64,000 nt of DNA from Escherichia phage JSE, in sequence record EU863408; one strand, 5' to 3'. Position 1 is the first letter of the stretch. Every line of letters starts with the position of its first letter. A program made the translations under genes and the position numbers. The notes beneath the pieces were generated by a model. The model saw nothing but the letters and a program-made list of their open reading frames with translations. It was not told the DNA's origin and did not search any database. Positions 19,550 to 61,017 of the stretch are shown one piece after another.

Positions 19550-19558
19550 TAATCGAAA

Positions 19559-19590
19559 GGCGGGGATAATCCCCGCCTTTTTATTTTGCT
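19559..19590 (+). terminator. rho-independent terminator after gene 54
   Basis: GGCGGGG-ATAAT-CCCCGCC then TTTTTATTTT. Confidence 0.7.
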
Positions 19591-20066
19591 AAATCATTGC
19601 AATATTTTAGTGCCTTAGTTTGAAATTCTGCGCTGTTAAGTTCTTCATAACGGTCATAATCACCGTTTAATGCTGCCTTTCTTGCTTCTTGCTCTATCTG
19701 CATGTCAGACATGATAATACAGCGATCCCGTGCTTTCATCTTCTCAAGTTGTATAGACTCTTCTTTCTGTTTGCGCAATTCTTCTTGACGCTTCTTTTCT
19801 TCTCGTGCTTTCTCTTCCCGCGCTTCTTTGATTGCATCCTTGAACATCTGCGTTTGTGGTGCTAAACCAACTTTAACGCGATCCACGTCTCGACGTTCCA
19901 TTTTAGAAATAAAGCATGATTCGATCTGATCATCACTTGCATATGCTGCTTTACATTCACGAAGCAAGAAAACCGGATCTGATTTAGCATTCATCATAGC
20001 TTCCATGTTAGCACAACCAGTAAGAATGAATGCAGCCGCAAGACCAATCAGTTTAATCATTTTCAT
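19581..20066 (-). CDS. putative lipoprotein
   Basis: Signal peptide ending in lipobox LTGC; charged coiled-coil middle region. Confidence 0.5.
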   Translation of the reverse strand: MKMIKLIGLAAAFILTGCANMEAMMNAKSDPVFLLRECKAAYASDDQIESCFISKMERRDVDRVKVGLAPQTQMFKDAIKEAREEKAREEKKRQEELRKQKEESIQLEKMKARDRCIIMSDMQIEQEARKAALNGDYDRYEELNSAEFQTKALKYCNDLAK

Positions 20067-20887
20067 TTAGTCACCTCACCGAAAATTGTAAATTGTCTAC
20101 GATTCTCATCGCCGAAAGATTCTACTACGTCGTTTACCTTGACGCAAGTCCCGCGCGGTAAAATTACTTCACATTCGCAAGGGTTCCATGCAATGGACCC
20201 AACAACAAAACCTTTATGATCTTTTACATCAATCACCCATGATACATTACAAGAATGTTGCATCTTTCCGGTCATTGATTCATATCGATTCTCACAATAA
20301 AGGCTAGTGCTGTTTGATAGCCATCCTCCAAAGATGATCGGTGTCATGCTGGTCGATACAAAGTTTTTAAAGGTAAACTCCTTATCTTCAATGATGCGCT
20401 CTATTGTCTGAATGTCAAGATGTTGACCGCGATAAAGAGTACCGTTTAACTTTTCGGTTTTATCCATGACGCAATCCATCAAATCAACAATCTCTGATAT
20501 CTCATCGGTCATGTCTTCTTCGCCTAAGAGAGCACCATTTACCCATTCGTATTGTTCAGACACATAATCACAGATTGCAGTATATTCTTCTGGGGTTATG
20601 TTGTTATGTTTGTAATGTTTGAATACATTATCTCCAAAGTCTTCGGAGTGTACTTCATACATCACATTAATGATTTTCTTGACAAATCCATAATCTTGTG
20701 TCTCACGCTCAAGGAAGCGGATAACCTTCACATAATCATCAAAGTTAATCTGATCGCTGATCATCTCAGTGATCATGTAACCATTAATCCCCTCAATGTC
20801 ATATGTTTCGATGTAATTATCCATACGTTCCATCATTGATTCGCGTGATTCTTCCGAAAGACGAAAATCCTGTAATTGTTTGAACAT
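20063..20887 (-). CDS. Alt-like ADP-ribosyltransferase (short paralog)
   Basis: R-S-ExE catalytic triad signature (LYRGQ, STS, CECE) parallel to the C-terminus of the adjacent alt gene. Confidence 0.6.
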   Translation of the reverse strand: MFKQLQDFRLSEESRESMMERMDNYIETYDIEGINGYMITEMISDQINFDDYVKVIRFLERETQDYGFVKKIINVMYEVHSEDFGDNVFKHYKHNNITPEEYTAICDYVSEQYEWVNGALLGEEDMTDEISEIVDLMDCVMDKTEKLNGTLYRGQHLDIQTIERIIEDKEFTFKNFVSTSMTPIIFGGWLSNSTSLYCENRYESMTGKMQHSCNVSWVIDVKDHKGFVVGSIAWNPCECEVILPRGTCVKVNDVVESFGDENRRQFTIFGEVTK

Positions 20888-20904
20888 TTTAAACCTCCCA
20901 TATA

Positions 20905-20937
20905 ACAGAAAACGGGGCTAGTATAAAACTAGTCCCC
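20905..20937 (-). terminator. terminator after alt
   Basis: GGGGACTAGT-loop-ACTAGCCCC then T-rich tract on minus strand. Confidence 0.55.
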
Positions 20938-20965
20938 GTTTGAGTCAACCATTATTTCTTAAAAA

Positions 20966-23017
20966 TTACATTTTAAATTTATCTGGCATTGCGTCTACAG
21001 ATACCAGATCAGCGATAAGCTGACGTAGAGTTGCCTTATCTGCTTTCTTACGTTCGGTTTTAGCTTCGCTAATGAAGCTGGAGAAAGACAGGTCAGAAGC
21101 AGGTTTAACAACACCTTCACGGATGAATGCATCACCGTCTGCGATCATCTCGCCAGATTCTTGTAATGCTGCCAGTTCATTTTTGTTCATAATATGTGCC
21201 TCAATGTAATAAGTTTCTTGTGAATCCGTCGATGCCGTAGCACGAGTTACCGTATCAAAGGATAACACAACACCGCGAGGAAGTAAAATCTCGCATTCTT
21301 TGTAAGCAAATGCTTTGTTACCTACTGGCAATACAGGGATGTTTTCCGCGCCAGCAATGGAGAAAGCAACATTAGCGCCACCTTCACCGCGAGAGCCAGC
21401 CATAGAATCAACACCAGCAACGGCACTAGCCACGTTTGCATTCCAGCCGCCAAAAATGTTAGGTGCAAGGGAAGTGCTCACATAGTTTTTAAAGTAAAAC
21501 GCTTTTTGCTTACGTGCAGTTTCCCACATTTGCGACCGGAAGTCCATACCACGATACAGAATAGTACCCGGATCAAGTTTAACGCCATAGTTGGAGAAGG
21601 CATTATCCAGTGCATCGCACATCTTGACCAATTCTTCTGGATCTGAGATTCCTTCAAACTCTTCCAGCTTACGGTCGGTTAGGAAGTTGTTCATATTGAT
21701 GTATGCTGCATCGGCATATTCGCTCAACACAAAACCTTCCGCGCCTGGCAGATCAAGATCAATATTTGCCATCATTTCACCCATGTTGCTAGCAATTGCT
21801 TCAAACATACCGGAAGCAACATTACGTAGGGCATCGGTTTTAATCTGGGTGATATTACTACGCAGCATTTCAGCTTTTACATCTGCTGGCATAGACTGGT
21901 CTACTCGATCCATTGCCAGTGCGGTGATCTTGTTTTCGAATACTTCCTCGCTCATGATTTCTTTTAAGCGTTTGATTGATGCTGCGATAACTTCCGCAGA
22001 CAACGGATCATATTGATCCTGAACTTTTACCAGTTCGCTTACTGCGTATTTTGCATCGGCTTCGCTTTCAAAAATAGTACGCATGAAACCATAGCGAGTG
22101 ATAATATCACTTGTCCAGTCATTCAGAGAACGGGCGGTTGAACGTTCTAAGGCTTGACGATCAATCAGAGTATTAAACTGTTTCTTAGGTTCTGCTTCGG
22201 TGATATCTTCTTCCGGTTTAAGATTAATTTTTTCTGGATGATTCACATAGTCGCTGTTATAGGTCGCTTGAGTTTTCAGCATTTCTTCTTTAGTCAAACG
22301 AGATTTAGCCGCTACGCGTTGTTCCGCTTCCGCGTTTCGTTCTTCTTCTGACACAAGACTAGCCGCATACGCTTCATCTTTAGTCAGAGATTCACCAGTA
22401 GCCTTAGATACCCAGCGATCACCTAAATCACTTTCTACTTTAGTGAACAAGGAATCATCAAGTTTAATCCCTTTAATCTTATCAATCGCCATACCGCGAC
22501 GCTTGACAACAACTAAAGCGATCTTTTTGCTGGTCATTACTTCCTGCTGGAATACTTCAAACTTCGGTGTACGACGCACCAAACGCTCTATAACGCGCTT
22601 AACCAGTTCGGTCTTACCTTTCATGCGGGATACGTTAAAACGGAACATAACAGCGTCTAGTTGCGCTTTACGGGCTGTTTCCATAACCACATCAAAAGCA
22701 CTTGACATAACTGCAATCGGGTTATCGCCTAGACCATTTTTAAGCTGTACAATACGACCGCTTTTGTTCATTTCGCACAGTACAACATGTGCGGTCTTGT
22801 CACCCATACGAATGATTTTAGGTGTTTTGTTGGTGAAGTTACAAAGACGGACAATCACATCTTTATCGCGTGTCTGTACTGCAAAAAGCTGTTTAGGATT
22901 CTGCTTAGGCTTTAAGCACTGTACCGGGGCAATACTACCAAAGTTTTCTTCCTCTTCCGTCAACAGCCATTTCTCGAAAGATTCAATCATTAGATCGTCG
23001 ATTTCTAAGTTAAACAT
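20966..23017 (-). CDS. alt: Alt ADP-ribosyltransferase (packaged)
   Basis: 683 aa (T4 Alt is 682 aa); C-terminal YRG...STS...ECE motifs; position after gene 54. Confidence 0.85.
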   Translation of the reverse strand: MFNLEIDDLMIESFEKWLLTEEEENFGSIAPVQCLKPKQNPKQLFAVQTRDKDVIVRLCNFTNKTPKIIRMGDKTAHVVLCEMNKSGRIVQLKNGLGDNPIAVMSSAFDVVMETARKAQLDAVMFRFNVSRMKGKTELVKRVIERLVRRTPKFEVFQQEVMTSKKIALVVVKRRGMAIDKIKGIKLDDSLFTKVESDLGDRWVSKATGESLTKDEAYAASLVSEEERNAEAEQRVAAKSRLTKEEMLKTQATYNSDYVNHPEKINLKPEEDITEAEPKKQFNTLIDRQALERSTARSLNDWTSDIITRYGFMRTIFESEADAKYAVSELVKVQDQYDPLSAEVIAASIKRLKEIMSEEVFENKITALAMDRVDQSMPADVKAEMLRSNITQIKTDALRNVASGMFEAIASNMGEMMANIDLDLPGAEGFVLSEYADAAYINMNNFLTDRKLEEFEGISDPEELVKMCDALDNAFSNYGVKLDPGTILYRGMDFRSQMWETARKQKAFYFKNYVSTSLAPNIFGGWNANVASAVAGVDSMAGSRGEGGANVAFSIAGAENIPVLPVGNKAFAYKECEILLPRGVVLSFDTVTRATASTDSQETYYIEAHIMNKNELAALQESGEMIADGDAFIREGVVKPASDLSFSSFISEAKTERKKADKATLRQLIADLVSVDAMPDKFKM

Positions 23018-23055
23018 TTTATATCCTCTAGTTGATAACCTATAAACCTATATTT

Positions 23056-23084
23056 ATGAAAACGGGGCTTAACGCCCCTTTTTA
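23056..23084 (-). terminator. hairpin terminator, possibly bidirectional
   Basis: GGGGC-TTAAC-GCCCC with T-runs on both strands. Confidence 0.5.
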
Positions 23085-23333: not shown

Positions 23334-23362
23334 ATTATGATATACACCCTCTGTTATGTCAA
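23334..23362 (-). promoter_or_regulatory. early promoter cassette (TTGACA-N17-CATAAT)
   Basis: Precedes ORF 23085..23297; -10 overlaps a GGGTGTAT/ATACACCC palindrome. Confidence 0.5.
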
Positions 23363-23580: not shown

Positions 23581-23609
23581 ATTATAGGGGATCGATGATC
23601 CCCTGTCAA
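23581..23609 (-). promoter_or_regulatory. early promoter with stem-loop spacer (PeSL-like)
   Basis: TTGACA, palindromic spacer GGGGATCATCGATCCCC, TATAAT, then AAGGAG site. Confidence 0.6.
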
Positions 23610-23617
23610 CAACTTTT

Positions 23618-24136
23618 TTAGTTATTTTTTAATTGCTCATCTTGCAATAGGGCAATCACATGCTGGCGATGTTCTTCCGATTGAGGCACACCGAAAAAGT
23701 TTGTTTTGTAGAAATACTCTAATCGGTCTTCTCGTGTGCTCTCTTCCATCATGATCGCGGGTAGTCCGAGATTTCGGAAACGTCGCTTTTCTGCTGGCGT
23801 AAAATCACTGTAATACAACATAGAATCATCATTACCAGCAATGCTAAACTCATCCTTCATAAAGGAGAATATTGCGTTTAAACGCTGTTTACCGTCCACG
23901 ATTTCGATCTCATAGCGAGAGCCATCATCAATCTTAGCCATTGCGATAGCACCAACCGGAAAATCATTAATCAGGTTTTCGATAAACATACGTTTGTTTT
24001 CTGTGTCCCATACTAAAGGACGCTGATAATCTGGGTTCATGTTGATATAGCCATCTTCTAACCATGCATCATAAACAGAGATGACAAAGTTTTTAGTATT
24101 GGTATAGTAACGGCGTTTAGGCGTTAAACGGTTCAT
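23618..24136 (-). CDS. DUF262 / ParB-like nuclease-fold domain protein
   Basis: DYQRPLVW and IVDGKQRLNAI motifs typical of DUF262; start placed at ATG 24136 with AGGAG site. Confidence 0.5.
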   Translation of the reverse strand: MNRLTPKRRYYTNTKNFVISVYDAWLEDGYINMNPDYQRPLVWDTENKRMFIENLINDFPVGAIAMAKIDDGSRYEIEIVDGKQRLNAIFSFMKDEFSIAGNDDSMLYYSDFTPAEKRRFRNLGLPAIMMEESTREDRLEYFYKTNFFGVPQSEEHRQHVIALLQDEQLKNN

Positions 24137-24137
24137 G

Positions 24138-24467
24138 TTATAGTCTCCTGAATGGATCATCACGTAAATCAATATCTTTTAAGAACTCATCCCATGAATG
24201 CCGGATATTGTTCTTAATTCTCCAGATAAGCGCAGGGATTGAACGCTCTCCCATCTGGAAGTAAGGATCATATGATCCGTATGCCCAATATGCTACTACA
24301 ATTCCACAATCAGCGCAATAGTATTCTATTTCACTTGCTGGCGACCAAAGTCCATCAATATGATCGGTGATCTTGCTTTCGATGTTATGGCTATGACAAT
24401 CAGGGCAACGGATGCAATGACCTTGTTTATCGTAATTTGACGTTAGCGAATACTTAAACAATCTCAT
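24138..24467 (-). CDS. zinc-ribbon protein
   Basis: Two CxxC pairs (CIRCPDC and CADC). Confidence 0.5.
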   Translation of the reverse strand: MRLFKYSLTSNYDKQGHCIRCPDCHSHNIESKITDHIDGLWSPASEIEYYCADCGIVVAYWAYGSYDPYFQMGERSIPALIWRIKNNIRHSWDEFLKDIDLRDDPFRRL

Positions 24468-25183
24468 TATAGATCCTTATTTGCTTCAAATACTGCCTTT
24501 GCGAATCCTCGCGGGGTAAGTGACCTTATAGTCTTTGTTTTCGTTCCTTTCCCGCCTAGCTTAGAATGCTGTTTACTGTACCCTTTATTAATCTGCAACG
24601 GTTTCTTTTCTGGCATTATAAAGCCTTGTCCGGACCATAAGCAAGTCTTTTTCGGGTACATATCACGGGCGGCAATATACTCAGGAAACGTAGGATGCTT
24701 ATCATCTTCCGGCAAATAACCGCCATATTCCCACGGATGGAACATATAATCAGGCTTACGCCACATGCTAGAGATAACGCTTACAGGATTCTCTATCATG
24801 TAGGGAACTCCTAGCCATTCACCCAAATAAGCGGTTATTTTAGCTGCCCTTACATCATGAACTTGAATCAATGGTCCTTGCTCTCGTTTCTTTCGTTCAA
24901 AGTGTGCAGCGCCACTAACAGCTAAATTGGTGCACGGTGGGAATGCAAAGATAATATCCGGTTTCCCCCATTCAAGGTCCATTGCTCTTTCCAGCCAGTT
25001 CAAATCAATCCAGGTGTTTACATAGGTAATGTTTGGATGTTCAAATCTGGTATTATACTTTTTGTATGTACCGTGGTCGGCGTCATCCGCATTAAAGCAG
25101 ACTACCTTATGACCTGCTTTAGCCCATTCTAGCCCCATTATCCCCGATCCGTCAAAGTTGCAGAATATTAATTTTTGTTTCAC
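24467..25183 (-). CDS. SAM-dependent methyltransferase-like protein (cytosine-5 MTase-like motifs)
   Basis: FxGxG motif I (FDGSGIMG), PC motif IV (FPPCTNLAVSG), ENP in place of ENV; lacks an obvious target-recognition domain. Confidence 0.4.
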   Translation of the reverse strand: MKQKLIFCNFDGSGIMGLEWAKAGHKVVCFNADDADHGTYKKYNTRFEHPNITYVNTWIDLNWLERAMDLEWGKPDIIFAFPPCTNLAVSGAAHFERKKREQGPLIQVHDVRAAKITAYLGEWLGVPYMIENPVSVISSMWRKPDYMFHPWEYGGYLPEDDKHPTFPEYIAARDMYPKKTCLWSGQGFIMPEKKPLQINKGYSKQHSKLGGKGTKTKTIRSLTPRGFAKAVFEANKDL

Positions 25184-25750: not shown

Positions 25751-26062
25751 TTAGCGACGGCGACGATGTTTTTTGCGAGTTGCCTTTTTGTATGCTTTAT
25801 ATGCCTTTTTACCGTTTTTATATGCTTTTTTGGTATATGATTGATTTTTCTTATTGTTTTTGTATGTTTCCCGGTCAGTATTAATTTCGTTACATTCCAC
25901 GAAACGGTGTCGATGTTCTTGTGGTATGATCAAACATTTATCATAATTAACCATTTCGTTTTTCGTTGTTTGTGGTTTCTTTGGTGTGTTGTTTGCACTA
26001 ACAGACCCAGCAAAGAGAATGAGTATAGCGGTCATTAACGCAAACATTGTTTTCTTAATCAT
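25751..26062 (-). CDS. secreted small basic protein
   Basis: N-terminal signal peptide; lysine/arginine-rich C-terminus. Confidence 0.5.
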   Translation of the reverse strand: MIKKTMFALMTAILILFAGSVSANNTPKKPQTTKNEMVNYDKCLIIPQEHRHRFVECNEINTDRETYKNNKKNQSYTKKAYKNGKKAYKAYKKATRKKHRRRR

Positions 26063-58107: not shown

Positions 58108-61017
58108 ATGGCAGATTTAAACAGAATCCAATTTAAACGTACTAGCACGAAAGGTCGTAAACCTGATGCTACTACAATGACGCAAGGTGAACTTGCTATC
58201 AACCTGCATGATTATTATTTGTTTACAAAAAATGACTCTGGTTCTATTATTAACTTAAGCTGTCCTCCGATCTATGACCGCGATGTTATCATGGCTGGTA
58301 AAGTAAAGGGAGATTATTACATTTTAGGTAAAACCGCCAATTATCTTGAAGATCAGACAGCGAGAGACCTTAACCGTTTTGGAGCATTCCGTACCAACGG
58401 TCTAGATGGATTTTTAGATTTGACCTTGCATGTTCCTCATTCTGCTGGCGTTCAACATGGTCGAGGATTTACTTTCCGTTATGCGACTGGCGGATCTCGT
58501 GTTGAAACATATGGGTATAATGCACAGGGACAAAAAGCATTTAGCTATAAAATGTATCATGAAGGTGATAAACCAACTCCAGGAGAACTGAACGTTTATA
58601 GCAAACAAGAAGTAGATAGAATGTTTGTTAAAAACGTTAAACTTTCTACAGGTTCTGGTGATATCGTTGACGGTTATTTTAAATTAGCGACTGCGATGAT
58701 TCCACAAGACGGTCGTAGTGTATTTTTCCGTATTCATGGTGGTAACGGATATAACATTACTGCATACGATCAAGTTGATATTGTAGAAATTGTTATTCGC
58801 AGTGGAAATAATCGTCCTAAAGGTGTTAACGTTATTGCATACCGCCGAAATACAAACAAAGCATTTGATGTTTTGGCTGTTAATACTTCTGGTGATAACT
58901 ATGATATCTACGTGAAATATCAGCGTTACACTGATAACGTTATTGTTGAATTTGGTAAAAGTGTTGATGTTAATCTGGTAGTCCATGACGTTCCAGACTT
59001 TGTTGTTGATCGTCCTGTTGGCGATAATGTTATTGGCGGTCGCGCGGTAACTCTTTTCAACACCGAAAACAAACGAGGTGTGTTGAGTTTTGACGACAAT
59101 ACACAAAACAGCTATGATATTGTTCACATGAGTAATGATAAAGGTACTGGACGAAAATATATTCGTAAATTCCGTAGTAACTATAATGAAATGATCTGGC
59201 ATGAGACGGTTCAAGGTAACGTATATCGTTTAGCTACTGGAACTACCGACGCAAACGAAGTTCTCAAAATTACCGACCGCACGTTGCAAACTGGCAATGC
59301 TGTTTTTGACGGTGGTAATAATAATGTTCGTTTACATCGTAAAACCGGAAAAAGTAACTATCTGGAATATTATGATGCCCGTGACGGAGCAAATAAACGT
59401 CAGGGATATATTGGGTATGGCGATGCCACAACTAACCAGTTGTCAATTATTAACGAACTCTCCGAAGGTAATAACTCGATTTTCTTTAACGAGACAGGTC
59501 AAATTTCACTTAACGTAGGAAAGACAAAAATTGTTCATAGCAACGGACAATATATTTCTACCAACGCCGATAACTATCGTATAATTTATGGTAATTATGG
59601 AACATTCTGGCGAAATGATAGCGTTAAACTTTATCTCATGTCCACTGCCGAAAATGATAAATGGGGTACTTGGAATAGCTATCGACCATTCATTTACAAC
59701 CTAACCAGCGGCGATGTTCAATTGGGTGGTGATGGTAACGAATCGGCATTAACGTTAGAATGTGCTTCTCGTGCCGCTCGCTTTAGTAATGACGTTTACA
59801 TTAAGAAAGGGCTTTTGACTTTCGACGCTGGGCGATTAGGATCTCGCGATTATATTAGATTTAATCATTGGGGCGATAGCAATAACGGTCGCGATAACAT
59901 CCTACAGATTGAAGACAGTCAGGGCGCACATTTTACCACTGAACGTGCTATGGGTACTGGTAACATAACAGCACGTTTTAAAGGCTTTGTTCGTGTTGAG
60001 TCTGGTGAGATTGCATTTGATGCTAATCGGGGGTCGCAGTCTCAATTTACCTTACACACATGGGGTAACGAGCAACGCAAACAGGTTTTTGAATGTAAGG
60101 ATGCTACAAGTTATCACTGGTATACTGAACGTACTCAGGGTGGCACTGGACCTATTCTGTTCGTTATGGCGGGTAGTCTAAACGTTGGTAGCAATATCAC
60201 AACAACTGGTCCGGATATTACGTTTAAACGCGCTGGCAATAAGCACATCTGGTTTAGAGATCCAAACGGCTTAGAGTTAGGCTTGATGTACTGCGATGAT
60301 GCTGGTGCTATTCGCTTCCGTGGTCAGAAACAAGCCCAGGCGTGGAAATTTGCAGATAAAATGATCCAGTTGGAATCTGGCACTGTATCCGGTGGCGGTA
60401 ATGGCCTGATTCGTGGTGAAGTTGCTGGCGGTAGTTGGGCTAGCTGGCGTGACCGTGCTGCTGGCCTTATGGTTGGGTGTCCTCAATCAACCAATTCCGC
60501 TCATAACATCTGGAAAGCTACTCATTGGGGTCAATATCACATTGCAGCAATGGGTGTACATGTTCCTAACGGTACTATCGGTGATGCTATAGCTCGCCTA
60601 AACGTTCATGACGCCAACTTTGACTTTAGCGCCTCCGGTGACATGTCGGCAGGGCGTAACGGTTCGTTTAACGATGTTTATATTCGTTCTGATGCTCGCC
60701 TTAAAATCAATAAGGAAGAGTATAAGGAGAATGCCACTGATAAAGTTAATCGCTTGACTGTGTACACCTACGATAAGGTTAAATCTTTAACTGACCGTAG
60801 TGTTATCGCCCATGAAGTTGGTATTATTGCTCAGGATCTTGAGAAAGAATTGCCGGAAGCAGTAACAACTTCTAAGGTCGGCGACCCAGATAAACCAGAA
60901 GAGATCTTAACAATTTCTAACTCTGCTGTCAACGCTCTTTTAATTAAGGCGTTTCAGGAAATGAGCGAAGAATTGAAAGCCGTTAAAGCTGAACTAGCGG
61001 AACTTAAAAAGAATTAA
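58108..61017 (+). CDS. 37: long tail fibre distal subunit gp37 with C-terminal intramolecular chaperone (peptidase S74-like) domain
   Basis: N-terminus MADLNRIQFKRTS ... GELAINL matches T4 gp37; C-terminus SDARLK...GIIAQDLEKELPEAV...coiled coil matches the endosialidase-type chaperone domain. Confidence 0.85.
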   Translation: MADLNRIQFKRTSTKGRKPDATTMTQGELAINLHDYYLFTKNDSGSIINLSCPPIYDRDVIMAGKVKGDYYILGKTANYLEDQTARDLNRFGAFRTNGLDGFLDLTLHVPHSAGVQHGRGFTFRYATGGSRVETYGYNAQGQKAFSYKMYHEGDKPTPGELNVYSKQEVDRMFVKNVKLSTGSGDIVDGYFKLATAMIPQDGRSVFFRIHGGNGYNITAYDQVDIVEIVIRSGNNRPKGVNVIAYRRNTNKAFDVLAVNTSGDNYDIYVKYQRYTDNVIVEFGKSVDVNLVVHDVPDFVVDRPVGDNVIGGRAVTLFNTENKRGVLSFDDNTQNSYDIVHMSNDKGTGRKYIRKFRSNYNEMIWHETVQGNVYRLATGTTDANEVLKITDRTLQTGNAVFDGGNNNVRLHRKTGKSNYLEYYDARDGANKRQGYIGYGDATTNQLSIINELSEGNNSIFFNETGQISLNVGKTKIVHSNGQYISTNADNYRIIYGNYGTFWRNDSVKLYLMSTAENDKWGTWNSYRPFIYNLTSGDVQLGGDGNESALTLECASRAARFSNDVYIKKGLLTFDAGRLGSRDYIRFNHWGDSNNGRDNILQIEDSQGAHFTTERAMGTGNITARFKGFVRVESGEIAFDANRGSQSQFTLHTWGNEQRKQVFECKDATSYHWYTERTQGGTGPILFVMAGSLNVGSNITTTGPDITFKRAGNKHIWFRDPNGLELGLMYCDDAGAIRFRGQKQAQAWKFADKMIQLESGTVSGGGNGLIRGEVAGGSWASWRDRAAGLMVGCPQSTNSAHNIWKATHWGQYHIAAMGVHVPNGTIGDAIARLNVHDANFDFSASGDMSAGRNGSFNDVYIRSDARLKINKEEYKENATDKVNRLTVYTYDKVKSLTDRSVIAHEVGIIAQDLEKELPEAVTTSKVGDPDKPEEILTISNSAVNALLIKAFQEMSEELKAVKAELAELKKN

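What the first reader, a model, noticed from the sequence alone, without database searches (positions are those of the whole stretch)
19581..23017. Expanded alt locus: two ADP-ribosyltransferase paralogs plus a lipoprotein
Besides the full-length Alt (683 aa) there is a second 274 aa ORF with the same R-S-ExE catalytic signature (LYRGQ, STS, CECE) but a different N-terminus, and a lipoprotein with an LTGC lipobox next to it. Different N-terminal domains on the same toxin-like catalytic core suggest different targets or packaging.
Basis: partly seen in the sequence, partly recalled or inferred. Interest (0 to 1): 0.4.

Follow-up and report, generated by a model that had tools for sequence, protein, structure and literature searches.

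The report
RB49-type phage alt locus: two ADP-ribosyltransferases
This stretch of an RB49-like (Krischvirus) T4-type coliphage really does encode a full-length Alt ADP-ribosyltransferase, a second short but catalytically intact Alt-like enzyme and a lipoprotein, but the arrangement has been annotated and published since 2003-2006, so it is an ordinary, known feature with some modest new detail about how it is organised.

Summary
Three minus-strand genes lie between gene 54 and the early-gene region: alt (683 aa), a 274-aa Alt-like ADP-ribosyltransferase (sART) and a 161-aa lipoprotein. The window is 98-99% identical to RB49-like Krischvirus phages. RefSeq already calls the short gene [quoted passage not shown]. 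Nolan et al. 2006 list it as a paralogue of alt.

Both enzymes keep R / S-T-S / E-x-E. These residues are invariant in sART relatives down to 42% identity.

sART residues 65-273 match Alt 395-610. sART lacks Alt's first ~390 and last ~70 residues; only ~64 N-terminal residues are unmatched.

Added here:
- alt follows a terminator and a late-promoter-like motif.
- sART has its own sigma-70 promoter/hairpin cassette, conserved in four diverged lineages.
- sART is start/stop-overlapped with the lipoprotein in all four lineages.
- The lipoprotein's mature domain is a swappable cassette (~30% identity) between phages otherwise ~95% identical.

Best reading: Alt is late, packaged and injected, while sART is an early cytoplasmic enzyme, timed like T4 ModA/ModB. 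The lipoprotein is an early outer-membrane protein of unknown, probably conflict-related, function. Novelty: already known. Interest is low.

The parts
23064..23078 (.). GC-rich hairpin (GGGGCGTTAAGCCCC + T-run on both strands), a terminator ending the upstream early transcription unit just before alt
   Evidence: Found by the terminator scan and visible in the sequence. An equivalent hairpin sits at the same place in L006 and L015. Nolan 2006 notes a terminator upstream of alt in 5 of 6 T4-like genomes.
23051..23058 (-). Late-promoter-like motif CATAAATA, 33 nt before the alt ATG
   Evidence: The same position holds AATAAATA in L006, CATAAATA in L015 and TCTAAATA in L022. RB49's annotated late promoters read TGTAAATA and TCTAAATA. 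Function is inferred, not shown.
20966..23017 (-). alt: 683-aa full-length Alt orthologue. Catalytic R489 is at 21551-21553, S514-T-S516 at 21470-21478 and E574-x-E576 at 21290-21298.
   Evidence: phrog_802 E 1.6e-179. PF03496 37.9 bits. 27% identity to T4 Alt over 695 aa, E 1e-61. Annotated alt in RB49.
20907..20948 (-). Composite promoter/terminator cassette (PeSL-like). TTGACT (20948-20943), 17 nt, TATACT (20925-20920). A hairpin GGGG(A)CTAGT...ACTAGCCCC (20937-20914) spans the spacer and -10 and is followed by a T-run.
   Evidence: The region is 85% identical to L006 while flanking coding DNA is 65-67% identical. The architecture is kept with different stem sequences in L006, L024 and L022. 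The PeSL definition comes from PMC2839356.
20063..20887 (-). sART: 274-aa stand-alone Alt-like ADP-ribosyltransferase (= RB49p183). R153 is at 20429-20431, S178-T-S180 at 20348-20356 and E238-x-E240 at 20168-20176.
   Evidence: PF03496 58.2 bits. phrog_15144 E 2e-197. hhalign to Alt 395-610 at probability 99.9%. AF2 pLDDT 81.8. Foldseek hits to C3, Vis, iota, CDTa and Certhrax at E ~1e-10.
20063..20066 (-). ATGA start/stop overlap between sART and the lipoprotein gene (translational coupling)
   Evidence: Sequence. Overlaps of 1-8 nt are kept in L006, L022 and L024.
19581..20066 (-). 161-aa lipoprotein (= RB49p182). Signal peptide and lipobox LTG|C, with Cys18 at 20013-20015. Residue +2 is Ala. 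The mature part has four conserved Cys and is all-helical.
   Evidence: AF2 pLDDT 88.2. Annotated 'putative lipoprotein' in phage W115. phrog_16112, function unknown.
19598..20004 (-). Replaceable cassette: the mature domain of the lipoprotein
   Evidence: L014 and L015 are ~95% identical to the window on both sides but show no blastn match across this stretch. The proteins are ~30% identical there, with an identical signal peptide. 7 of 56 sequenced Krischviruses carry such variants.
19555..19581 (.). Bidirectional terminator between the lipoprotein gene and the convergent gene 54
   Evidence: 12-bp stem with 7 GC pairs and T-runs on both sides.

Best explanation
The locus belongs to an RB49-like (Krischvirus) T4-type coliphage and holds two transcription units.

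(1) alt encodes the orthologue of T4 Alt, an arginine-specific mono-ADP-ribosyltransferase. Shown: sequence orthology, synteny and intact catalytic residues. It sits behind a terminator and a late-promoter-like motif. By analogy with T4 it is inferred to be made late, packed into the head and injected with the DNA to modify host proteins immediately.

(2) A two-gene early unit starts at a sigma-70 promoter/hairpin cassette of the PeSL type. Shown: motif and conservation. Inferred: promoter activity.

Its first gene is a stand-alone C3-like ADP-ribosyltransferase of the Alt clade. It lacks Alt's ~390-residue N-terminal region and ~70-residue C-terminal tail, but keeps R153, S178-T-S180 and E238-x-E240. 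It also carries its own invariant loop after the STS motif (NSTSLYCEN). It is inferred to be synthesised de novo early in infection, to stay in the cytoplasm, and to ADP-ribosylate arginines on a target set different from Alt's. In timing it would resemble T4 ModA/ModB. RB49 has one mod gene where T4 has two.

Its second gene, translationally coupled to the first, is a small all-helical lipoprotein with four conserved cysteines and Ala at +2. The outer-membrane destination is inferred from the +2 rule. Its mature domain is exchanged as a cassette between otherwise near-identical phages. That pattern suggests a role in an envelope-level conflict such as superinfection exclusion or receptor masking. 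Its actual function is unknown.
For: Identity of the phage and prior annotation:
- The region is 98-99% identical to 57 Krischvirus genomes.
- RefSeq names RB49p182-184.

Enzyme family and catalytic residues:
-.
- L022's 264-aa homologue still has R, STS and ECE.
- Domain correspondence is sART 65-273 = Alt 395-610.
- The predicted fold is C3/Vis/iota-like.

Placement among phage enzymes:
- sART falls in the Alt clade and not in the Mod clade.
- RB49 has a single mod next to srd, where T4 has modA and modB.

Transcription signals:
- Terminator plus CATAAATA before alt.
- TTGACT-17-TATACT plus hairpin before sART.
- Both are conserved in diverged lineages, with changed stem sequences.
- In T4, alt is late and ModA/ModB are early proteins (PMC9697503).
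- PeSLs were shown experimentally in RB49/phi1 to be promoters and terminators (PMC2839356).

Conservation of the gene pair:
- The order Alt - sART - lipoprotein - convergent gp54, with start/stop overlap, is found in the window, L006/7, L014, L015, L022/23 and L024.

Lipoprotein:
- Lipobox and four Cys are conserved.
- Cassette replacement is shown.
Against: - No expression, proteomic or enzymatic data exist for either gene in any Krischvirus; literature searches found none.
- The promoter before sART is only a 10/12 match. The region as a whole has no more promoter-like hits than shuffled sequence (16 found against 14 +/- 3.8 expected). The claim therefore rests on position and conservation.
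- The hairpin may let late alt transcripts read through, so sART could also be made late.
- The sART N-terminus (MFKQLQDFRLSE) loosely resembles the Alt N-terminus and the T4 capsid-targeting sequence, and it contains an (L/I)xE protease-type site. Packaging is therefore not excluded.
- The lipoprotein has no informative homologue by sequence or fold.
- Its alleles do not obviously track the tail-fibre tip alleles.
Confidence: 0.6

Rival explanations
1. The short enzyme is also a virion protein. It would keep an Alt-like or capsid-targeting N-terminal peptide, be made late by read-through from the alt late promoter, be cleaved by the prohead protease at an (L/I)xE site, and be injected together with Alt. 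The two paralogues would then differ in targets, not in timing.
For: - The N-terminus MFKQLQDFRLSE|ES resembles the T4 IPII/IPIII targeting sequence MKTYQEFIAE| and the Alt N-termini (MFNLEIDDLMIES in the window, MFDPQLLETLLES in L006).
- 5 of 6 family members have an (L/I)xE within the first ~15 residues.
- The gene lies directly downstream of alt on the same strand.
- Comparative surveys find that phage ARTs in this genomic context are often head-packaged (PMC9503650).
Against: - The resemblance is weak and the motif is short enough to arise by chance. The exact N-terminal sequence is not conserved in the more distant family members.
- sART lacks the ~390-residue N-terminal region that distinguishes packaged Alt.
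- A conserved hairpin with a T-run and its own sigma-70-type promoter separate it from alt in four lineages.
- No TATAAATA-type motif lies before it.
Confidence: 0.2
2. The short enzyme and the lipoprotein form a functional pair rather than two independent accessory genes. For example, the enzyme might modify a host envelope-biogenesis or secretion factor that the lipoprotein depends on. Or both might act in the same exclusion or anti-defence pathway.
For: - The pair is kept together, in the same order and with overlapping stop and start codons, in every lineage examined, even where the proteins have diverged to 42-45% (enzyme) and ~30% (lipoprotein) identity.
- The lipoprotein family is tiny, about 10 true clusters in 1.84 billion representatives.
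- In every context fetched, the lipoprotein sits after a short ART.
Against: - The two products are predicted to be in different compartments, cytoplasm and outer membrane.
- The lipoprotein's mature domain is swapped while the enzyme stays ~95% identical. This argues against tight co-adaptation.
- Linkage in a small clade of related phages can be simple inheritance.
Confidence: 0.12
3. The short gene is a decaying remnant of an alt duplication, like T4 alt.-1/alt.-2, with no enzymatic role.
For: - T4 carries non-catalytic fragments of a duplicated alt at the same site.
- Other phages show a second alt copy split into two ORFs.
Against: - The ORF is full length in all 57 Krischvirus genomes.
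- The family forms a clade with 100% bootstrap support and 75 invariant positions among 6 sequences at 42-84% identity.
- All catalytic residues are invariant.
- The predicted fold is confident.
- The gene has its own conserved promoter cassette.
Confidence: 0.03

Closest known systems
Bacteriophage T4 Alt (gpAlt; head-packaged NAD+:arginine mono-ADP-ribosyltransferase)
   Same: The 683-aa protein aligns end to end with T4 Alt (27% identity, E 1e-61). It occupies the same site next to the convergent gene 54. It has R/STS/ExE and a late-type motif upstream, as expected for a late gene. The 274-aa protein matches the catalytic part (31% over 181 aa to T4 Alt; hhalign 99.9%).
   Different: The long protein is strongly diverged from T4 Alt and has ~16 extra N-terminal residues. 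The short protein lacks the N-terminal ~390 and C-terminal ~70 residues. It forms its own clade outside all full-length Alts sampled, though with only 65% support. It also has its own early-type promoter.
T4 ModA / ModB (small early ADP-ribosyltransferases of 200 and 207 aa; ModB also RNAylates)
   Same: Like them, sART is a small stand-alone R-S-E enzyme without a packaging region and is apparently transcribed from a sigma-70-type promoter. T4 has three ARTs (Alt, ModA, ModB). RB49 also has three (Alt, sART and one Mod).
   Different: There is no significant sequence similarity (BLASTP E 0.66-4). The tree places sART with Alt and not with Mod. It is not at the srd-mod locus. ModA, ModB and the RB49 Mod showed no S-[TS]-[ST] match in a simple motif scan, whereas sART has STS. 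This is a functional analogy only.
Other alt-locus duplications in T4-like phages: T4 alt.-1/alt.-2, Aeromonas phage 44RR ORF187c/188c, phage 25 ORF178c, JS10 altb
   Same: All are extra alt-derived ORFs next to alt. Nolan et al. 2006 group RB49ORF183c with them.
   Different: T4's copies are non-catalytic N-terminal fragments. L009's is a split full-length copy. The Aeromonas short form branches separately. The Krischvirus form is a distinct, conserved, catalytically intact subfamily coupled to a lipoprotein.
C3-like / Vis / iota-CDTa-C2 / Certhrax bacterial ADP-ribosylating toxins (R-S-E clade, Pfam PF03496)
   Same: They share the predicted fold (Foldseek E ~1e-10, TM ~0.6 on the target), the Pfam family, and the R, STS and ExE motifs.
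   Different: Sequence identity is 13-19% only. sART has no translocation or binding component, and it acts inside the phage-infected cell.
PeSL promoter-early/stem-loop cassettes of RB49 and phi1 (Arbiol et al. 2010; Comeau et al. 2014)
   Same: An AT-rich stretch, a near-consensus sigma-70 promoter and a G-run/C-run stem-loop lie in an intergenic spacer in front of accessory genes.
   Different: Whether this particular cassette is in the published PeSL list was not checked. ORF183 is not mentioned in the main text. The -10 is TATACT rather than consensus.
Phage-encoded exclusion lipoproteins (T5 Llp, phi80/N15 Cor)
   Same: Small early phage lipoproteins with disulfides, expected at the outer membrane. 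Allelic replacement is compatible with a receptor-linked conflict. The properties of Llp and Cor are stated from general knowledge and were not tested here.
   Different: No sequence or fold similarity was detected. There is no clear covariation with tail-fibre tip alleles. The resemblance is a hypothesis only.

Membership tests
R-S-E clade ADP-ribosyltransferases (Pfam PF03496, Alt/VIP2 type) | Profile match above the curated threshold | tested here: met
   Alt scores 37.9 bits and sART 58.2 bits against a cut-off of 23.4.
R-S-E clade ADP-ribosyltransferases (Pfam PF03496, Alt/VIP2 type) | Catalytic Arg, Ser-Thr-Ser and Glu-x-Glu in register | tested here: met
   R489/STS514-516/E574xE576 and R153/STS178-180/E238xE240 are aligned. 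They are invariant in the families.
R-S-E clade ADP-ribosyltransferases (Pfam PF03496, Alt/VIP2 type) | C3-like mixed alpha/beta fold | tested here: met
   The AF2 model of sART has pLDDT 81.8. Best PDB matches are Certhrax, C3bot, Vis, CDTa and iota Ia at E ~1e-10. This rests on a predicted structure; Alt itself was not modelled.
R-S-E clade ADP-ribosyltransferases (Pfam PF03496, Alt/VIP2 type) | NAD+-dependent ADP-ribosyl transfer to arginine | not testable with these tools
   Needs an enzyme assay.
T4 Alt orthologues (applies to the 683-aa protein) | Full-length similarity, including the N-terminal Tevenvirinae-type region, and position beside the convergent gene 54 | tested here: met
   E 1e-61 over 695 aa to T4 Alt. 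phrog_802 covers 16-683. Synteny is shown.
T4 Alt orthologues (applies to the 683-aa protein) | Late expression, packaging into the head and processing by the prohead protease | tested here: inconclusive
   A late-like nnTAAATA motif is conserved 33 nt upstream. An LTE site at residues 19-21 lines up by offset with T4's ITE at 4-6. No proteomic data are available.
T4 Alt orthologues (applies to the 274-aa protein) | Presence of the N-terminal ~390-residue region | tested here: not met
   hhalign covers only Alt 395-610. The protein is 274 aa.
T4 ModA/ModB family (applies to the 274-aa protein) | Sequence relationship to ModA/ModB and location next to srd | tested here: not met
   BLASTP E 0.66-4. 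The tree groups it with Alt at 82-87% support. RB49's mod gene is elsewhere.
T4 ModA/ModB family (applies to the 274-aa protein) | Early expression without packaging | tested here: inconclusive
   A conserved sigma-70-type promoter cassette lies upstream. There are no expression data.
Bacterial-type lipoproteins | Positively charged n-region, hydrophobic h-region and lipobox [LVI][ASTVI][GAS]C | tested here: met
   MKMIK-LIGLAAAFI-LTG|C. The Cys is invariant and the lipobox is kept in all family members. The AF2 model has low confidence only for residues 1-15.
Bacterial-type lipoproteins | Lgt/LspA/Lnt processing and Lol sorting to the outer membrane | not testable with these tools
   Residue +2 is Ala, and it is A or S across the family. 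This predicts outer-membrane sorting by the textbook +2 rule only.
PeSL cassettes (Arbiol et al. 2010) | Sigma-70 promoter consensus, AT-rich upstream region and a stable stem-loop in an intergenic spacer | tested here: met
   TTGACT-17-TATACT, AT-rich 5' flank and GGGG...CCCC hairpin. The architecture is conserved with altered stems in L006, L024 and L022. Definition.
PeSL cassettes (Arbiol et al. 2010) | Demonstrated promoter and terminator activity | not testable with these tools
   Reporter assays exist for other PeSLs only.
Superinfection-exclusion lipoproteins (Llp/Cor type) | Homology to a known exclusion lipoprotein, or blocking of the phage's own receptor | tested here: not met

The most novel reading that the evidence does not exclude
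The short Alt-like enzyme and the lipoprotein may constitute a conserved early two-gene module specific to the Krischvirus lineage. The enzyme would be a third, previously uncharacterised functional class of T4-type ART: Alt-derived but Mod-like in timing, with its own substrate loop and hence new host targets. The lipoprotein would be a hypervariable outer-membrane exclusion or anti-defence factor whose mature domain is shuffled by recombination. The recombination anchors would be the invariant signal-peptide coding sequence and the terminator.
Probability: 0.3. Interest if true: 0.45.

Novelty: already known. Interest (0 to 1): 0.22.

Why it matters
T4's three ADP-ribosyltransferases are the classic example of a phage chemically reprogramming its host, and ModB's RNAylation has renewed interest in them. 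Krischviruses are common therapeutic-candidate coliphages, and they carry a different complement: Alt, an Alt-derived short enzyme and one Mod. Knowing the targets of the short enzyme would broaden the catalogue of host-takeover modifications. The swappable lipoprotein could affect superinfection and host-range behaviour in phage cocktails. The existence of the genes is not new, however, and nothing here overturns current understanding.

Tried and rejected
1. ModA/ModB membership for the short enzyme was rejected (BLASTP and tree).

2. A recent tandem duplication of the resident alt is not supported. The short family is about equally distant from all Alts (31-37% identity) and branches outside them. 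The tree is only neighbour-joining, and that node has 65% support.

3. The capsid-targeting-sequence idea was explored. T4 IPII/IPIII N-termini were fetched and RB49 and the window were scanned for similar N-termini. Only the short enzyme itself matched my loose pattern, RB49 has no annotated internal proteins to calibrate against, and the motif is too degenerate. It is kept only as a rival.

5. A spanin role was rejected. RB49 has pseT.2/pseT.3 spanins, and the protein has no C-terminal membrane anchor.

6. Covariation of lipoprotein allele with the gp37 tip allele shows no clear pattern.

7. The AFDB Foldseek library was unavailable.

8. Solved structures of Alt or Mod: the sequence search and the fold search of the PDB returned only other ART toxins.

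9. Literature on Krischvirus virion proteomics or ART function: nothing relevant was found. The Koch 1995 paper on gpAlt is not held.

Full report
**What the window is.** The 3.8 kb around the finding is 98.4-98.9% identical to 57 complete genomes of RB49-like coliphages (genus Krischvirus, Straboviridae). In the RB49 RefSeq record the three genes are:
- RB49p184, "alt";
- RB49p183, [quoted passage not shown];
- RB49p182, hypothetical.

Phage W115 annotates the third gene as "putative lipoprotein". Nolan et al. 2006 (PMC1524935) state that RB49ORF183c, like 44RRORF188c and T4 alt.-1/alt.-2, appears to be a paralogous duplication of the adjacent alt gene. The finding as written is therefore already in the public record.

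**Checking the observation.** The ORF coordinates and lengths are exact. Both enzymes match Pfam PF03496 above threshold, and both match PHROG families annotated as Alt-like ADP-ribosyltransferases. Pairwise BLASTP aligns LYRG, STS and ECE (37% identity over 109 aa, E 9e-17).

I collected relatives of the short enzyme (here sART) from metagenomes, at 84-42% identity and 272-288 aa. R153, S178-T179-S180 and E238-x-E240 are invariant in them. A still more distant 264-aa homologue (L022) keeps R, STS and ECE.

The third ORF has a textbook lipoprotein signal. Its lipobox Cys is invariant across a small family.

**Anatomy of the short enzyme.** Profile-profile comparison equates sART 65-273 with Alt 395-610 at 99.9% probability. 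An AlphaFold model built on 10 sequences has mean pLDDT 81.8. It has helices up to residue 143, followed by the beta core. Its best PDB matches are Certhrax, C3 exoenzymes, Vis, CDTa and iota-toxin Ia at E ~1e-10, over about 210-220 aligned columns.

sART is thus a complete C3-like ART domain with about 64 extra N-terminal helical residues. It lacks Alt's first ~390 residues and last ~70.

"Same core, different N-terminal domain" is therefore not accurate; "core without the Alt N-terminal region" is. The loop after STS (PIIFGGW-x-x-NSTSLYCEN) is invariant within the sART family but differs from Alt after the shared IFGGW. It is also the least confidently modelled part. I take this as a hint of different substrate recognition; that is inference.

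**Origin.** sART is 31% identical to T4 Alt over 181 aa and 37% identical to its own neighbour over 109 aa. In a neighbour-joining tree of the catalytic region, the sART family is monophyletic with 100% bootstrap support. It lies inside the Alt group rather than with ModA, ModB or the RB49 Mod (82-87%). It lies outside all full-length Alts sampled, but with only 65% support. It is therefore an old or fast-evolving Alt derivative, not a recent copy.

Its N-terminal 110 residues are found by tblastn only in Krischviruses, and in all 57 of them.

Alt duplications at this site are common:
- T4's alt.-1/alt.-2 are fragments of the alt N-terminus (56-62% identity).
- One metagenomic T4-like phage has a second alt split into 273-aa and 415-aa ORFs.
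- Aeromonas phage 25 has a 301-aa Alt-like ORF.

**Transcription signals.** Reading the minus strand:

*Upstream of alt.* The early gene upstream ends in a GC hairpin with a T-run at 23064-23078. CATAAATA follows at 23058-23051, 33 nt before the alt ATG.
- TATAAATA occurs six times on the plus strand of the window. Two of these sites lie ~30-35 nt before tail-fibre ORF starts.
- RB49's annotated late promoters include TGTAAATA and TCTAAATA.
- The equivalent position in three diverged relatives reads AATAAATA, CATAAATA and TCTAAATA.

*Between alt and sART.* This spacer holds TTGACT-17-TATACT (10/12). A GGGG...CCCC hairpin overlaps the spacer and the -10 and is followed by a T-run.
- This 85-nt spacer is 85% identical to L006, where the flanking genes are only 65-67% identical at the DNA level.
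- L006, L024 and L022 keep TTGACA-17-TATACT (L006, L024) or TTGACA-17-TAGAAT (L022), plus a hairpin whose stem sequence differs.
- The design matches the promoter-early/stem-loop (PeSL) cassettes described, and shown to act as promoter and terminator, in RB49 and phi1 (PMC2839356).

*Downstream.* sART's stop codon overlaps the lipoprotein's start codon (ATGA). Overlaps of 1-8 nt are kept in all four lineages. A strong bidirectional terminator at 19555-19581 closes the unit against the convergent gene 54.

In T4, alt is a late gene whose product is part of the virion, whereas ModA and ModB are early proteins (PMC9697503). RB49 has one mod gene beside srd where T4 has two.

Taken together, the best reading is that Alt is late, packaged and injected, while sART plus the lipoprotein form an early operon. 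The signals are sequence-level inference. No expression or proteomic data for any Krischvirus were found.

**A rival I could not exclude.** The sART N-terminus MFKQLQDFRLSE loosely resembles T4's capsid-targeting sequence MKTYQEFIAE and the N-termini of the Krischvirus Alts. Most family members have an (L/I)xE site near the N-terminus. The resemblance is weak and not conserved in detail, so I give packaging about 0.2.

**The lipoprotein.** It is a 161-aa protein. Ala at +2 predicts outer-membrane sorting by the standard rule. The confident AlphaFold model (pLDDT 88) is all-helical, with a 62-residue helix. Four cysteines are conserved.

No family, fold or literature match gives a function. An exhaustive profile search of 1.84 billion representatives returned only about ten true relatives. 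All are 155-174 aa with a lipobox. Every genomic context I could fetch shows Alt - short ART - lipoprotein - convergent gp54.

The most interesting detail is mosaicism:
- Contigs L014 and L015 are ~95% identical to the window through alt, sART and the first 60 nt of the lipoprotein gene.
- They are again 92-96% identical from its last 17 nt onward.
- They have no detectable DNA similarity over 19598-20004.
- The encoded proteins share an identical 20-residue signal peptide but only ~30% identity in the mature part.

Seven of 56 sequenced Krischviruses carry such variant alleles. This is the signature of cassette replacement at a conflict-related gene. An exclusion or receptor-masking role is plausible, but the alleles do not obviously track gp37 tip alleles. 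The function remains open.

**Verdict.** The interpretation needs correcting on the N-terminus. What I add is not surprising for a T4-type hyperplastic region:
- the regulatory split between a late alt and an early sART-lipoprotein unit;
- the conserved coupling of the short enzyme to the lipoprotein;
- the lipoprotein cassette.

Interest is low, at about 0.2.

Noticed in passing
window 19598-20004 (compare L014 4155-4582 and L015 3584-4023): The mature domain of the lipoprotein is replaced as a cassette between phages that are ~95% identical on both sides. The 20-residue signal peptide and the last few codons plus the terminator are the conserved borders. 7 of 56 Krischvirus genomes carry ~28%-identity variants.
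   Followed up: partly
window 23581-23609 and 23334-23362 (minus strand): Two near-perfect sigma-70 promoters (12/12 and 11/12), each preceded by AAAAGTTG. In the first, a GGGG...CCCC hairpin fills the spacer. In the second, a hairpin overlaps the -10. They sit in front of 59-aa and 70-aa ORFs and look like typical PeSL cassettes of the RB49 hyperplastic region.
   Followed up: partly
window 23618-24172 (-): A 184-aa ORF equivalent to RB49p187. It is annotated as a DUF262 domain protein in W115 and hits PF03235 (GmrSD_N) in contig L014. This is a phage-encoded relative of the N-terminal domain of GmrSD-type restriction enzymes, lying just upstream of alt.
   Followed up: no
window 24467-25183 (-): A 238-aa ORF annotated as DNA methyltransferase in RB49 (RB49p189), in the same early cluster.
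   Followed up: no
window 59815-61014 (+), C-terminal 400 aa of the gp37-like distal tail fibre (ORF 58108-61017): The receptor-binding end of the long tail fibre is highly polymorphic among Krischviruses. Only 3 genomes are >=95% identical to the window. RB49 itself is 77% identical, and others are 58-80%.
   Followed up: partly
window 25751-26062 (-): A 103-aa ORF with a cleavable-looking signal peptide (MIKKTMFALMTAILILFAGSVSAN) and an extremely basic C-terminus (…KKATRKKHRRRR). It may be a secreted or periplasmic early protein.
   Followed up: no
L005 5066-5451 (T4 alt.-1 and alt.-2) and L009 5183-7248: T4's alt.-1 and alt.-2 are 56-62% identical to Alt residues 1-117. A metagenomic T4-like phage carries a second alt split into a 273-aa N-terminal ORF and a 415-aa catalytic ORF. 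The site downstream of alt is a recurrent duplication hotspot.
   Followed up: partly
L004 8917-9420 (RB49 genome, outside the window): RB49 has a single 167-aa Mod homologue next to srd. It is closer to T4 ModB (33% identity, E 1e-9) than to ModA (23%, E 2e-5). T4 has both genes.
   Followed up: partly
window 22955-22966 (Alt residues 18-21, LLTE): The window Alt has ~16 more N-terminal residues than T4 Alt. By the offset of the BLASTP alignment, its LLTE motif corresponds to T4's LITE (residues 3-6). It may be a conserved prohead-protease (L/I)xE site, which would imply a longer propeptide here. The motif positions themselves lie just outside the aligned segment.
   Followed up: no
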